From assembly GCA_963723515.1 (NCBI GenBank), contig CAVRQT010000002.1:672001-736000 (forward strand): a stretch of 64,000 nt of DNA, written 5' to 3'. The position numbers are program-made. Positions 27,001 to 36,000 of this stretch are shown here, piece by piece; position 1 is the stretch's first letter; each line of letters opens with the position of its first letter. Source of the DNA: Vulcanimicrobiota bacterium. GTDB taxonomy: Bacteria > Vulcanimicrobiota > Vulcanimicrobiia > Vulcanimicrobiales > Vulcanimicrobiaceae.

Positions 27001-30000
27001 AGCGCGTACGATGCGATTCTGAAAGCCGATCCAAAATATGCCGATCGCACCTCATATGTCATCGCGCCAGACGGCAAGATCGTGTATGCCTACTCGTCGC
27101 TCAACCCGGACAAACATGTCGCGAACACGCTTGATGCGCTAAAGAAACTCGAAGGCAAATAACTCAGCGCCGCCAACGGATTGACAATCCCCTGTCACGC
27201 TGAGGCAGTCGAAGCGCGACCGTAACCTGGAATAGCAACATAATCGCAAACTATCATTGGGTAGAATTACGGCGGCCCTTCGACGGGCTCAGGGTGACAG
27301 GTCCACGGTGGCTCATACCTTACGCTTGGTGCTCGTCCGTCGGCAACTCTAATTGTGGCGTAATCACGTCGAGCGCCGTGACCGGACGAATTGCCGTTTC
27401 GATCGCCGGCGATTCGTTGAGGTCGACATCGGAGAAGGACGCCGTTTCCTTGAGCTTGCGGCCACGCGGCAAAACGCGGCCTTCCATCGAGCCGACCGTA
27501 CTGTTATAAGCCGAAACAGCGCCTTCGAGCGCCGTTCCGATCTTTGCGAAGTGTGACGCAAAGACCCGAACCGCATCGTAGAGATCGCGCCCTAAGACCG
27601 CAATCTGCTTCGCATTCTCTTCCTGCCGTCGCTGTTGCCAGCCAAGCGCATACGAGCGGAGCAGCGCCATCAGCGTTAGTGGGCTTGCGATGTAGATGCC
27701 GCGGTTTGCACCGTATTCGATCAAGTCCGGATTCTCGATGCATGCAGCGCTCAAGAATGCTTCGCCCGGCACGAACATGACGACGAAATCCGCCGAACCT
27801 TCGCTGCGCTGGTAGTTCTTGCGGGCCAAGGCATCGACGTGCGTTTTCATCGCAATCGCGTGTTGATGCAATTTTTCGCGCCGCGTTGTTTCCTCCGCAA
27901 CTTCAACGGCTTCCAGATACGCGTTGAGGGGTGCCTTCGCATCGACGAAGATCAACGAATTTCCCGGCAGCTTGACGGTCATATCGGGGCGACCCACTCC
28001 GTCGACCGATTCAAACGTTTGCTGTTCGCTAAAGTCGCAATACGGTTCCATGCCTGCGAGCTCGACCACGCGCCGCAGCTGCACCTCGCCCCACTTGCCG
28101 CGGGTCGTCGGGTTGCGCAGCGCGGTTAAGAGAACCGACGTTTGACTCGCTAAGTTTGAGGTCGTATCTGCCAATCGATCGCCGTGCGCCGTCAACTGTT
28201 TGATCTGCTCGGTGAGGCCTTGGTACGCGCCGATGCGCTGCCGCTCGACCTCCTTGACGAAAGAGTCGAATTCGGTCAATTTTTGCTGCACCGGTCCGAC
28301 AGCGTTTTGCAAACGCTGCGCGGCGAGATCCAAGAATTCGTCGCGATTGCGCTGTGCGAGCCGGCTGTTAGCTTCAGTCAGCTCGTTCTTGAGTTGCTCC
28401 GCAACGGTTTGCACTGCCTTTTGGTGGCGTTCATCTTGGTCCGTGAGCCGAGCCTGCGCGACCGCGCATTCGCGTTCTGCAGCGCTACAGCGATCTTGCA
28501 AGCGGCGCGCATTTGATTGCAACAAGAGCCAGGCGACCAGCAGCCCGATCACGATCCCAACGATCGACGATGCGATCACCTCGGCTGAAAGCGTCATTCA
28601 GCCGGACTTTTTTCGCCTTACGACTTCAAATACTTTGCAAAGAACGCTAGCGTGCGCGACCATGCGTCGGATGCTGCCGACGGTACATACGAAGCGCGTT
28701 GATCGTCGAAAAATGCGTGGCCCGCCTCCGGATAGATCTTGATGTCGTTGGGCACGCGTAAACGCTGCGCAAAAGCGCGCACGTCATTCGCTAAAATGCC
28801 GGTGTCTCGCTCGCCGTAATTTCCTTCGATCGGAATTTTTATTTGATCGACGTACGCGAGCGCCGGCTCGATCGGCCCGCTGCCATCGCCGGGACCGCCG
28901 CCGGTCACATAGCGCACCGCTCCATACCAGATGGCGGCCGCTGAGAAGAGGTCGGCGTTGTCGATCACTTGCCGAAGTGCGATTCGCCCGCCCATGCAAA
29001 AACCTGTGATACCGATTTTCGCACTGGAATGGTTTGAACGAATCCACTGCGCTGCTGCACGCACATCTCCGTCCACCTGCGCGCGATCGAGTTTTTGCGC
29101 GAAGGCGCTGAAAATTTTGTAATCGGTTGCGTTGTCACCGCTGGGCGCCCCGAAGCGGCCGAATAAGTCCGGAGCGATCGCCTCGTAGCCCGCCTTTGCG
29201 AACCGGCGTACGACGTCTCGGATGCTCGTGTCGACGCCCCAAATGTGCATGATGACGACGACCCCGGGCGTGTTCGCCGTGCCGTCCTTTGGGCTCGCGG
29301 TATAGGCGTTGATGTTGCCGTCGGGACGCGCGAGGGAGACGGTTGCCGTCCTTATGGCCGGATCGTCTTCCGCGACAAGGGGCGGATGCGGTTTCCCGAG
29401 CTGATCCTGCGCTAATGCCTTCGCCGATGTTGCAACGCCAAGCGCGGCGGCGGACAACCCGACAAAGGCCGTACGGTTCAACTGAGTCCCGGTTGCATGA
29501 ACCGGATCGACGTCGTGCATTTCCATATCGTTGCAATCCAGCATGGGTGTGGAAGTACCCTTGCAGGCAGTCCGTTCGGCGCTCGGTAAACCAATGCAAG
29601 TCCATGCTCAAAGTCACGCTTCCCGAGATGGGGGAGTCGGTCGCCGAAGGTTCGATCGTCGAATGGCGCAAGCGAGTCGGCGAATACGTTCAGCAAGGCG
29701 AAACGCTTGTCGAGATCACCACCGATAAAGTTGACGTCGAAGTGCCGGCGCCTGAGTCGGGGGTCGTCACGAGCGTCGCCGCCGATGAAGGCGCCAAAGT
29801 CAGCGTCGGCGCCTTGCTCGCTGAAATTGACACCTCCAAAAGATCAGCTGCTGCGGCCAGCGACGGTGCAGCGAGCGACGGCGCGGTGGCTCCCGCGGTC
29901 GAGCCGAGCGGGCCTCCGCAACTCGTCACGGTCGCGATGCCCGAGATGGGAGAATCGGTCACGAACGGCACCGTCGTCGAGTGGCTGCGCAAGCCCGGCG

Positions 30001-33000: not shown

Positions 33001-36000
33001 GCATCCTTTGAGGTTTTCAACAGTCCGCTTTCGGAGTACGCGTGTATCGGTTTCGAATACGGCTATAGCGGATCGCTGCCGAATGCGCTCGTGCTCTGGG
33101 AAGCGCAGTTCGGCGACTTCAACAACGGCGGCCAAGTGATCGTCGATCAATTCATCGTCGCCGGCGCCGCGAAATGGAATCAAACCTCACGCCTGACGCT
33201 GCTGTTGCCGCACGGCTATGAGGGCGCGGGCCCCGAACATTCCAGCGCGCGGCTCGAGCGCTTCTTGCAACTCTCGGCCGAAGGTAATCTGCGGGTAGCG
33301 AATTGCTCGACCTCCGCGCAGTACTACCATCTTTTGCGCGCGCAAGCGACCGATGCGCAAGCGGTTCCGCTCGTCATCATGACCCCGAAGAGTCTGCTGC
33401 GCGCTGAAGAGTCATTCGGCACTCTGCAAGAGATGGCGACCGGAAAATTCCATCCGGTCATCGACGATGCACACTTCGCCGACAAGAAGGACGCCGTCGA
33501 ACGGCTGATCTTATGCAGCGGCAAAATCTATTACGATCTGATCAACCACGAGTTGTATAAAGCGGTCCAGAAGACGGCGATCGTGCGCATTGAATTGCTG
33601 CAGCCGCTCCCGCACGGTGAATTGAACCGGCTGATCGGCACTTATCCGAATCTCAAGAAATTGATTTGGGTGCAGGAAGAGCCGAAGAACATGGGCGCGC
33701 GCGCACACGTACGGCGTCGCTTACTCGAGCGCAAGACGGACTCGATGGATATCGGTTACATCGGACGTCCATATCGCGCATCACCGTCGGAAGGCTATCC
33801 AGGCGCACATCTTGTGGAAGAAGAGCGCATCTTAAAAACAGCGCTGACGGAGTGACCGCACCATGAGATCGTCGGCCCTCGGTCTCTTTATCGCGCTCGG
33901 CGCGGCGATCGGCGTTGCAATCGGTAATGCATCGCATCAGATCGCGCAAGGCCTTGTGCTCGGCGTCGCTTTCGGGGTTGCAGCTGGAGCGCTAGTAGAC
34001 CGACAGCGCCGAGATTAGAGCTTCATCGCGCTAAAAAGCGCCGGCAATGTCGTTGCTGAGCGCAAGATCCCGCGATTCTCTTCGGAGAGAAAACCTTCCG
34101 CGACCGCGTGATCGAACATTTGCAGCAACGCATCAAAATAACCGTCAACGTTCAATAAGCCGATCGGCTTGTCGTGAATGCCCAGTTGAAACCAAGTGAT
34201 CGCTTCGCAGAGCTCGTCGAGCGTCCCGTAGCCGCCGGGCAGCGCGATGAACGCGTCGCTCAAGTCGGACATCATCGCCTTGCGCTCGTGCATGCTCGTC
34301 ACGAGGTGCAGTTGCGTCAAGCCGCCGTGCGCGACTTCGCGGTCCGCAAGCGCGCGAGGGATAACGCCGATGATGCTGCCGTTTTGTGCAAGAACTGCAT
34401 CAGCCAAGACGCCCATGAGCCCGATCGAGCCGCCGCCGTAGACGACACCTATACCTTTGGCGACGATGGCACGCGCGAGTTCAACGGCGGTGCGCGCATA
34501 GATGTGGTTGGAGCCGGTTTGCGACCCGCAGAAGACGCAGATGTACTTCACGAACTTCGGGGGTCGCTACGCTAGAACGAGCTCTTCTCCCTCAATTCCC
34601 GCGTTGCGAATCGCATTGCGGATCATCTCATCCTGCAACTCCGGAATGACCCAGCGGGCTTGCACATCGGGCGCTAACTTGTCGATCGGATCGAAGTAAA
34701 CGAACGCCTGACCCGGCTTGACGCTCGGCGCGCTGTACACCGCAATGCCGTTCTCACGGTCGTAGAAGTCGTAACTGTGGACGTCGCGCTTTCCGCCGCC
34801 GCCCGGCGCATCGCACACAAACGTCGGCGTGTTGAACCCTGCGGTCGAGCCGCGCACGAACTTCTCGATGTCGATCGCGCACTGCACCGTCGTGCGCAGG
34901 TCTTCCACGCCTCTGACGAGATCGTGCATATAAACGTAGTACGGATGCACGTTGAGGTGCCCGAGCCGTTTCACGAGCAGACGCATCGTTTTGGGATCGT
35001 CGTTAACCCCGCGAATGAGAACGGATTGATTGCGCACGACGATGCCGCGCTCGAAGAGAAGGCGCATCGCTTTCTCGGTGATCCACGTGATCTCGTTCGG
35101 GCTGTTGAAATGGGTGTGCAGAACGACTTCTTTACCGGCTTTGCGTCCACGCTCGACGATTGCGGTTAGCGCATCGAGCCACTCGGGATGCGTCAGCAAC
35201 TTCATCGGCATGATCGCCGGGCCTTTGGTCGCGATCCTCATCCGCCGTACGTGCGGAATATCAAGCAGCGCGTTGCCGATCAGCTCCAAATTTTTCGGCG
35301 GCAGCTGATACGCATCGCCCCCGGAGACGACGATATCTTCAAGTTCCGGACGCTCGGAGATGTATTGAAACGCATCTTGCCACTGTGCGGGGGTTTTGGC
35401 GAGCGAGACTTTGTCGACTTTTTCGGTGTCTGGTCCGATCGCATAGCTGCGGGTGCAGAAACGGCAGTAGACCGGGCAGACAGCGAGCGGCAAGAAGAGC
35501 GCCTTGTCGACGTAACGATGGACGAGGCCCGGCACCGGTGAGTCCGCTTGTTCATGCAGTGAATCGAGCGTCAGTCTTGGATGGTCGGCGATCAGCCGGC
35601 TTGCAAGGGGAATGAATTGCGTGCGAATCGGATCTCGATAGGGATCCTTCCAATCGATCAGTGAGATTGCGTAAGGCGAAACTCGTACGGCCATCGGCGC
35701 ACGTTCAAAGCCGAGGCGCGCGTCCTCGATAAACGCGGGCGCGGCAACCTCGCCAATCGTCGTCAGTAGCTCTTGCGGCGTCTTGACCGAATGTTTCTGT
35801 TGCCACAGATGATCTAAGAACGTCTTCTCATCAACGTCGCGGTACGCCGGAATCTTGCGCCAAAATTCCCCTTGCAGCAATTGCGTGTGCTCGAGCGCCT
35901 CTGGCGGCGCCGGCGGTTTGCGGTCGATCATTTCTGTCATTTGGTGTGCTCCTCAAGGGTTTCGTTCGCCGGCCCGTACCGCCGGCGGAAGTAGGCGTGA

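What a model noticed while it worked through the whole genome (the two positions that open the first line are those of the whole stretch)
29604..33855. Self-contained 2-oxoglutarate dehydrogenase: lipoyl arms, E3-binding, E2o and E1o on one polypeptide
g01000 and g01001 are one gene cut by an assembly indel near C2:703310. It encodes two lipoyl domains, an E3-binding domain, a KGD-type succinyltransferase and the E1o decarboxylase in a single chain of about 1410 aa. Unlike actinobacterial OdhA/KGD, which borrows lipoyl groups from the pyruvate dehydrogenase E2, this enzyme carries its own.
Evidence so far: Pfam domains and KGD likeness of the E2 part (49%). In 7 of 7 family genomes and 1 sister-family genome the match lies in one open frame of 1321-1411 aa; none in 26 other phylum genomes. 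The four relatives read carry one or two lipoyl motifs and the catalytic YDHR; one of them aligns across the indel here in two frames. The best 120 long homologues all combine lipoyl, E3-binding, E2 and E1 domains, the nearest 81% identical.
(Added by a program. Inside this text positions count along the whole contig: contig position 672,001 is position 1 of the stretch shown here. "Call 12" and the like, gene names such as g00115 and contig names such as C1 are that model's own, and its searches are not shown. The text may have been shortened before it was handed on; [...] marks where a part breaks off. The agent that wrote the report below was given it as the finding of a first reader that could run no searches.)

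Follow-up and report, generated by a model that had tools for sequence, protein, structure and literature searches.

The report
Known all-in-one oxoglutarate dehydrogenase, new lineage
This gene joins the lipoyl arms, the E3 anchor and both catalytic parts of 2-oxoglutarate dehydrogenase in one protein; that design was already described on paper for Thermoleophilia, and what is added here is that a whole class of Vulcanimicrobiota (Eremiobacterota) and the Dormibacter group carry it too, probably through gene transfer.

Summary
Observation confirmed. Window 29604-33855 is one gene of about 1416 codons: two lipoyl domains, an E3-binding domain, an OdhA/KGD-type E2o and E1o. One extra base near 31305-31311 breaks it. 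All 27 relatives read cross that point in one frame, and this assembly splits 14 of 137 conserved genes.

The novelty claim fails. Bruch et al. (bioRxiv 10.1101/2020.07.24.212647) describe this exact architecture ('LB-PS-E2-E1') in three Thermoleophilia, with the same idea that it needs no lipoyl groups in trans. The scan also found it before on other DNA (e1-3090821).

What is added is range and history. The fused E2 is in 81 of 81 genomes of the window's class (Vulcanimicrobiia) and 1 of 69 other phylum genomes. Dormibacter-type genomes carry it too. Lipoyl-bearing forms group together in the E2 trees. Vulcanimicrobiia plus Dormibacter nest among Thermoleophilia-type sequences (AU p about 0.026), which suggests transfer. 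Catalytic and OdhA hexamer motifs are kept; the GarA/OdhI docking residues are not. My seven paper searches showed no test of the full fusion. Verdict: new member of a known kind.

The parts
29604..33855 (+). Whole lipoyl-lipoyl-PSBD-E2o-E1o gene, about 1416 codons, one frame break
   Evidence: intact homologue P0003 (1421 aa) has all domains in one chain
29610..29828 (+). Lipoyl domain 1; lipoyl-acceptor Lys42 at 29727-29729 in a TDKV motif
   Evidence: Pfam PF00364 aa 3-75; Lys42 invariant in 18 rows; model pLDDT about 90
29925..30149 (+). Lipoyl domain 2; Lys148 at 30045-30047
   Evidence: second PF00364 stretch; beta-strand fold in model; 55% identical to domain 1; present in 15 of 27 relatives read
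30270..30371 (+). Peripheral subunit-binding (E3-binding) domain
   Evidence: PF02817 E 2e-11; two-helix fold; alignment of 25 class members
30483..31172 (+). OdhA/KGD-type succinyltransferase (E2o) catalytic domain; Ser316, Thr445, Ser455, Tyr501, His503 (31110-31112) and Gln507 match OdhA S129, T258, S268, Y314, H316 and Q320
31038..31076 (+). Insertion equivalent to the OdhA 296-302 helix that packs at the E2 three-fold axis and against E1o
   Evidence: gapless to KGD/OdhA-type rows, 5-6 residues longer than canonical SucB; helix 483-488 in model; meaning
31185..31187 (+). Phe528, aligned with the OdhA Phe340 region (PCI-like C-terminal helix that blocks cubic cores)
   Evidence: invariant
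31305..31311 (+). One extra base (probable assembly error) that splits the frame between E2o and E1o
31312..33855 (+). E1o (ThDP-dependent 2-oxoglutarate decarboxylase): E1_dh 31735-32643, Transket_pyr 32824-33402, C-terminal domain 33421-33846; lacks the PF16078 N-terminal helical domain

Best explanation
One gene, broken only in this assembly, encodes the 'full fusion' (LB-PS-E2-E1) 2-oxoglutarate dehydrogenase that Bruch et al. described in Thermoleophilia. It is the organism's only E1o and its only succinyltransferase-type E2. Shown by sequence: domain order, catalytic residues, and the absence of separate sucA/sucB. Inferred by analogy to OdhA/KGD: it forms a homohexamer of E1o dimers and E2o trimers. 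LipB/LipA lipoylate its own lipoyl domains. These swing on Pro/Ala-rich linkers between its E1o site (reductive succinylation), its E2o site (transfer to CoA) and LpdA held by its own PSBD. It therefore needs only E3 and no mixed supercomplex with the pyruvate dehydrogenase E2. It is probably not under GarA/OdhI control. Vulcanimicrobiia most likely acquired it once, by transfer from a Thermoleophilia-type source shared with the Dormibacter group.
For: Domains: (best experimentally solved matches are OdhA 8P5V/8P5T and KGD 8P5R, 42-46% identity). One frame in relatives: 27 of 27 across the break; 120 of 120 long homologues combine the domains; extra base versus G001; 14 of 137 conserved genes split in this assembly, 17 breaks in 152 kb. 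Prior description; cultured Patulibacter minatonensis has the same Pfam order. Only one E1o in G000; TIGR01347 SucB over cut-off in 0 of 41 class genomes. lpdA-lipB-lipA cluster at C2:147872-150884; sucC present. E2 active-site set kept in 25 of 27 Vulcanimicrobiota rows; OdhA Arg781/Asp795 equivalents are Gln/Gln in the window, and Arg is in 4 and Asp in 5 of 27 rows versus 19 and 16 of 20 lipoyl-less Actinomycetota rows. The three FHA proteins show no GarA-type N-terminal motif by eye (motif recalled). The genome's two other E2 proteins end without the PCI Phe, as Bruch reports for Thermoleophilia. Trees.
Against: No reads confirm the indel. No activity, lipoylation or oligomer has been measured for any member. 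The PSBD is weak or unscored in some relatives (G028, G025, L069, L073, L118, L122), and one relative's second lipoyl domain lacks the lysine (G029). In the E1 tree two long-branch lipoyl-bearing rows (L176, P0163) fall outside the main clade, and stand-alone Bacillota/Chloroflexota-type E1o lie closer to this clade than Actinomycetes OdhA does, so the history is not a simple single line. A 2-oxoacid:ferredoxin oxidoreductase alpha subunit is also encoded, so this enzyme may not be the only 2-oxoglutarate route. The hexamer is by analogy only; the Arg-Glu pair of the OdhA 296-302 helix is not evident in the window's insertion.
Confidence: 0.85

Rival explanations
1. The break is real: this strain makes a separate lipoyl-PSBD-E2 protein and an E1o started at the ATG at 31312, or the gene is a pseudogene.
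For: An ATG sits just after the break, and no reads were available to check.
Against: 27 of 27 relatives, including the same genus, read through. The E2 frame would run on to 31574 with an unrelated tail. lpdA, lipA, aceE, aceF and ftsX are broken in the same way. At 17 breaks per 152 kb, a 4.25-kb gene has about a 38% chance of at least one break (my arithmetic).
Confidence: 0.04
2. The protein is intact, but its arms work mainly in trans: it serves as a shared lipoyl and E3 hub for the pyruvate or branched-chain dehydrogenases, or it still joins a mixed supercomplex.
For: Its lipoyl domains resemble those of DlaT-like and branched-chain E2 proteins (50-55%) at least as much as those of SucB (39-53%). 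Mixed complexes exist in actinobacteria.
Against: The genome encodes two other E2 proteins, each with its own lipoyl domain and PSBD. The fusion lacks PF16078, the domain Bruch links to E2 binding. The other E2s lack the PCI.
Confidence: 0.08
3. It works mainly as a non-oxidative 2-oxoglutarate decarboxylase or carboligase (KGD side activities; recalled), with a vestigial E2 part.
For: NCBI's name for the family is 'multifunctional oxoglutarate decarboxylase'. An alternative ferredoxin oxidoreductase subunit is present.
Against: The E2 active-site residues and the first lipoyl lysine are conserved across the class.
Confidence: 0.03

Closest known systems
Thermoleophilia 'full fusion' LB(D)-PS-E2-E1 (Bruch et al., bioRxiv 10.1101/2020.07.24.212647; PNAS 2021 version not readable here)
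   Same: Same domain order: two lipoyl domains, E3-binding, E2, E1o, no PF16078. Patulibacter minatonensis DSM 18081 gives the same Pfam order. The E2-E1 core is 51-56% identical to 39 Thermoleophilia-titled rows and lies in the same clade.
   Different: Another phylum (Vulcanimicrobiota), where it is class-wide. One or two lipoyl domains vary within each lineage. The window's group keeps the full-length 296-302-type insertion, whereas 23 of 89 lipoyl-bearing rows (Patulibacter among them) have it four residues shorter.
Corynebacterium glutamicum OdhA and Mycobacterium smegmatis KGD (PDB 8P5R-8P5X, 2XT6; Yang et al. 2023, PMC10415282)
   Same: E2o fused N-terminal to E1o; E2 active-site residues, the helix insertion and the C-terminal Phe are kept; best PDB sequence match E 4e-268.
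   Different: Lipoyl domains and PSBD replace the N-terminal helical domain. Arg781 and Asp795 are not kept. The core is only 41-45% identical to 20 lipoyl-less Actinomycetota rows. The E1 part groups away from Actinomycetes OdhA.
Canonical SucA/SucB/Lpd complex (E. coli, Bacillota)
   Same: Same chemistry; lipoyl domain and PSBD sit on the E2 chain.
   Different: E1 is fused. The E2 domain is of the OdhA type, on a long branch away from SucB (100*). The C-terminal motif argues against a 24-mer core (inferred).

Membership tests
LB-PS-E2-E1 full fusion (Bruch 2020) | PF00364 (two copies) + PF02817 + PF00198 + PF00676 + PF02779 + PF16870 in one chain | tested here: met
   (P0003 and G013 intact); the window is in two frames
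LB-PS-E2-E1 full fusion (Bruch 2020) | PF16078 N-terminal domain absent | tested here: met
   no PF16078 hit in the window, G013, P0003, Patulibacter or Dormibacter rows; hit in the three lipoyl-less rows
LB-PS-E2-E1 full fusion (Bruch 2020) | Host E2p lacks the Phe-containing insertion (PCI) | tested here: met
   C-termini of both other E2 proteins of G000, read by eye; one genome only
LB-PS-E2-E1 full fusion (Bruch 2020) | Activity without lipoyl domains in trans (speculated in the paper) | not testable with these tools
   needs an enzyme assay
OdhA/KGD (PRK12270) | E2o fused to E1o, above the NCBIfam cut-off | tested here: met
   the E1 half alone scores 1071 bits against a cut-off of 878; the E2 half adds 342
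OdhA/KGD (PRK12270) | E2 active-site and succinyl-selecting residues S129, T258, S268, Y314, H316, Q320 | tested here: met
   (25 of 27 Vulcanimicrobiota rows carry the full set)
OdhA/KGD (PRK12270) | 296-302 helix insertion and C-terminal Phe | tested here: met
   OdhA-type spacing in the window and 59 of 89 lipoyl-bearing rows; Phe in 85 of 89
OdhA/KGD (PRK12270) | No lipoyl domain; N-terminal PF16078 domain | tested here: not met
OdhA/KGD (PRK12270) | GarA/OdhI docking (Asp795) and the E1-E2 contact Arg781 | tested here: not met
   Gln/Gln in the window by gapless offset from GHNE; residues
OdhA/KGD (PRK12270) | Homohexamer; acetyl-CoA activation | not tested
   inferred only; no oligomer model was run
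Canonical SucA + SucB | Separate E1o and E2o genes | tested here: not met

The most novel reading that the evidence does not exclude
The lipoyl-bearing fusion is a one-gene, portable 2-oxoglutarate dehydrogenase that needs only the host's E3. It arose once, moved from a Thermoleophilia (Miltoncostaeales-like) source into the ancestors of Vulcanimicrobiia and the Dormibacter group, and became fixed as their only ODH, free of PknG/GarA control. With six chains it would carry up to twelve tethered lipoyl arms on an OdhA-type hexamer, a natural test system for the open question of how lipoyl domains reach OdhA's two active sites. The E2 data also do not exclude that this form is ancestral to lipoyl-less OdhA/KGD (AU p 0.59), though the E1 tree favours a later gain.
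Probability: 0.5. Interest if true: 0.5.

Novelty: new member of a known kind. Interest (0 to 1): 0.3.

Why it matters
The architecture is not new, so surprise to a specialist is modest. Two things still have value. First, the papers read treat E2-E1 fusions as nearly confined to Actinobacteria; here the full fusion is class-wide in Vulcanimicrobiia and present in Dormibacter-type genomes, with tree evidence for transfer of a core TCA enzyme between soil phyla. [quoted passage not shown] A two-component system (this fusion plus E3) from a non-pathogen, for example Patulibacter minatonensis, makes that question directly testable.

Tried and rejected
Sequencing runs: none was listed, so no reads were laid. 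PNAS version of Bruch et al. (PMC8640841): not held; whether it keeps the preprint's passage is unknown, and its supplements and all figures (including Fig. 5, the distribution table) were not seen. Supplement search of Yang 2023 found no Thermoleophilia mention in 4 files, one further file not searchable. Seven paper searches showed no experimental study of the full fusion and no report of it in Eremiobacterota/Vulcanimicrobiota or Dormibacter; most subscription journals are not covered, and one search was uninformative. Promoter and terminator scan: nothing above chance (2 versus 1.3; 3 versus 5.6). A first frameshift census was discarded because shadow ORFs inflated it; one search replaced it. 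My ThDP-motif pattern had the wrong spacing and matched nothing; the GDAA...NN motif is visible. Direction of lipoyl gain or loss: unresolved on E2. Donor of the lipoyl domains: not resolved by identity. The word search of earlier findings returned nothing.
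Full report
**1. Observation.** The frame from ATG 29604 to 31310 gives 569 aa with two lipoyl domains (Lys42 and Lys148 in TDKV motifs), an E3-binding domain (aa 223-256) and an acyltransferase domain (aa 294-523). The frame from 31312 to the stop at 33855 gives 847 aa of E1o. An AlphaFold2 model of the first half (mean pLDDT 77.9) shows two beta-barrel lipoyl folds, a two-helix PSBD and the E2 fold, joined by low-confidence linkers. Its best experimentally solved matches are OdhA and KGD. An intact 81%-identical homologue, P0003, matches KGD over residues 284-1418 at E 4e-268.

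**2. The break is almost certainly an assembly error.** Same-genus G001 aligns across the site with one base fewer. I fetched 27 of the 30 relatives; G009 and G023 had no match of this type and G030 is unpublished. All 27 carry E2 and the start of E1 in one frame; 20 are unbroken end to end, 5 have frameshifts elsewhere and 2 end with their contig. Fifteen have two lipoyl domains and 12 have one. All 120 long homologues listed carry YDHR, and 119 have two lipoyl motifs. Using 200 kb of G013 as query, 14 of 137 conserved genes of this assembly are split, with 17 breaks in 152 kb; lpdA, lipA, aceE and aceF are broken too. No sequencing run was listed, so this rests on comparison.

**3. It is already in print.** I read passages and sections 9 and 10 of Bruch et al., bioRxiv 10.1101/2020.07.24.212647 (figures not seen). 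Section 9 says that in three Thermoleophilia the N-terminal domain of OdhA is replaced by two lipoyl domains and an E3-binding domain, a 'full fusion' called LB-PS-E2-E1, which could work without a lipoyl domain in trans. The PNAS version was not held. Of Yang et al. 2023 (PMC10415282) I read passages, sections 6 (part 1), 8, 9 and 10, and searched the supplements; what I read covers only the lipoyl-less enzymes. All other papers were seen as search listings only. After forming this reading I found that an earlier agent had reached it on another genome (e1-3090821).

**4. Range.** The fused-type E2 was found in 81 of 81 genomes of the window's class (71, 1 and 9 by family; the tally includes unpublished G030) and in 1 of 69 other genomes of the phylum. 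That one, G113, is lipoyl-less. By title: 49 Thermoleophilia, 8 Vulcanimicrobiota/Eremiobacterota, 8 Gemmatimonadota, 5 Dormibacter group, 5 unspecified Actinomycetota and 5 others. A lipoyl domain lies upstream in 48 of 49 (one is cut by its contig), 8 of 8, 0 of 8, 5 of 5, 5 of 5 and 5 of 5. The window's family groups with records titled Vulcanimicrobiaceae or Ca. Cybelea, so the class is Vulcanimicrobiia. In the phylum sample around a Dormibacter genome, 24 of 201 matched (the phylum is unnamed, and Chloroflexota is my inference); of 15 fetched, 8 are lipoyl-bearing and 7 lipoyl-less. In the sample around Patulibacter, 89 of 201 matched; of 24 fetched, chosen partly by score, 6 are lipoyl-bearing. 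The tallies include unpublished genomes; no tree uses them.

**5. Partners in the genome.** G000 has one E1o and two other E2 genes: an aceE-aceF pair and a branched-chain-type cluster. No SucB reaches the TIGR01347 cut-off in 41 class genomes, against 5 of 14 controls. lpdA, lipB and lipA lie together at C2:147872-150884, and an lpdA match is in 25 of 25 genomes searched. sucC is present, and so is a 2-oxoacid:ferredoxin oxidoreductase alpha subunit of untested substrate. The fusion gene stands alone, between a divergent dienelactone hydrolase gene and a convergent LOG-family gene.

**6. Mechanism.** Shown by sequence: the OdhA E2 residues named by Yang et al. (S129, T258, S268, Y314, H316, Q320) map to S316, T445, S455, Y501, H503 and Q507, and the set is complete in 25 of 27 Vulcanimicrobiota rows, two of which duplicate others. 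Eight E1o motifs (recalled as active-site motifs) are each in 26 or 27 of those 27 rows. The insertion that forms the OdhA 296-302 helix has OdhA-type length in the window and in 59 of 89 lipoyl-bearing rows, and the C-terminal Phe is in 85 of 89. The regulatory Arg781 and Asp795 are Gln and Gln here, by gapless offset; Arg is in 4 and Asp in 5 of 27 rows, against 19 and 16 of 20 lipoyl-less Actinomycetota rows. The three FHA proteins show no GarA-type N-terminal motif by eye (motif recalled). Both other E2 proteins end without the PCI, matching the correlation. Inferred: an OdhA-like hexamer whose own lipoyl arms bridge the roughly 60 angstroms between the E1o and E2o sites and reach LpdA held by the PSBD, with no need for a mixed PDH/ODH complex. 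Against: the PSBD is weak or missing in several relatives, and nothing has been assayed.

**7. History.** E2 tree (91 of 139 rows; most Vulcanimicrobiia and Thermoleophilia rows thinned, seven ambiguously titled rows left out): all 48 lipoyl-bearing rows lie on one side of one branch (SH-aLRT 95), and Vulcanimicrobiia join the Dormibacter side (98). With 19 canonical E2 as outgroup, all fused E2 form one clade (100) and the lipoyl-bearing ones a subclade (96), but the root is open. A lipoyl-less clade is not rejected (AU p 0.59), so gain versus loss is unresolved on E2. E1 tree (62 rows, three proteobacterial SucA as outgroup): 21 of 23 lipoyl-bearing rows form a clade (99) beside lipoyl-less Gemmatimonadota and Chloroflexota-sample fusions (100). 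This favours a later gain of arms, but two long-branch rows fall outside, and stand-alone Bacillota-type E1o lie nearer than Actinomycetes OdhA does. On the joined E2-E1 core (33 rows, long-branch rows left out, rooted on the 8 nearest lipoyl-less fusions), Vulcanimicrobiia plus Dormibacter (100/99) group with the Miltoncostaeaceae-type Thermoleophilia (99/98). Holding the 11 Actinomycetota rows together is rejected at p 0.026 under both models. I chose that test after seeing the tree, four of the 11 rows have no class name, and the root depends on the outgroup, so transfer from a Thermoleophilia-type source is likely, not proven.

**8. Verdict.** The feature is real and correctly read, but it is a new member of a described kind. 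Within the searches named, its presence in Vulcanimicrobiia and the Dormibacter group, the shared origin and the loss of GarA/OdhI residues were not found in print, and neither was any experimental test. Interest 0.3.

Noticed in passing
window 23845-24735 (-) and 25304-26606 (+): An ftsX-like gene (named by eye) and an acyl-CoA dehydrogenase-like gene are each split by a frameshift, like the finding itself.
   Followed up: partly
window 34015-37025 (-): A LOG-family gene, a KamA-like radical SAM gene (PF04055, PF12544) and a 362-aa gene with no Pfam hit that looks like a lysine-fermentation dehydrogenase (name recalled) sit beside the fusion gene; several relatives keep them nearby.
   Followed up: no
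G000:C2:42881-47344: The branched-chain-type dehydrogenase cluster has two tandem, similar E1-alpha genes before E1-beta and E2.
   Followed up: no
L036 (G029), second lipoyl domain: The second lipoyl domain has lost the acceptor lysine motif; lipoyl number varies between one and two within all three lineages.
   Followed up: partly
L065, L066, L097-L099, L104, L112, L116; L177-L183; L185 (G113): Lipoyl-less OdhA-type fusions occur in Gemmatimonadota, in a group from the Dormibacter phylum sample and in one other Vulcanimicrobiota genome; PF16078 was confirmed in L097 and L177. The L177-L183 group has a stretch about 14 residues shorter where the 296-302 helix lies. Their lipoyl donor is unknown.
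   Followed up: partly
L062 and L114: Records titled 'Chlamydiae bacterium' and 'Bifidobacterium breve' carry the full fusion at 75-80% identity to Solirubrobacterales rows; the titles are probably wrong.
   Followed up: partly
L175, L176 (G454, G507) and P0163: Fast-evolving lipoyl-bearing fusions on long branches whose E1 part falls outside the main clade.
   Followed up: no
G000:C2:770138-770638: A 2-oxoacid:ferredoxin oxidoreductase alpha subunit that may give a second route for 2-oxoglutarate.
   Followed up: no
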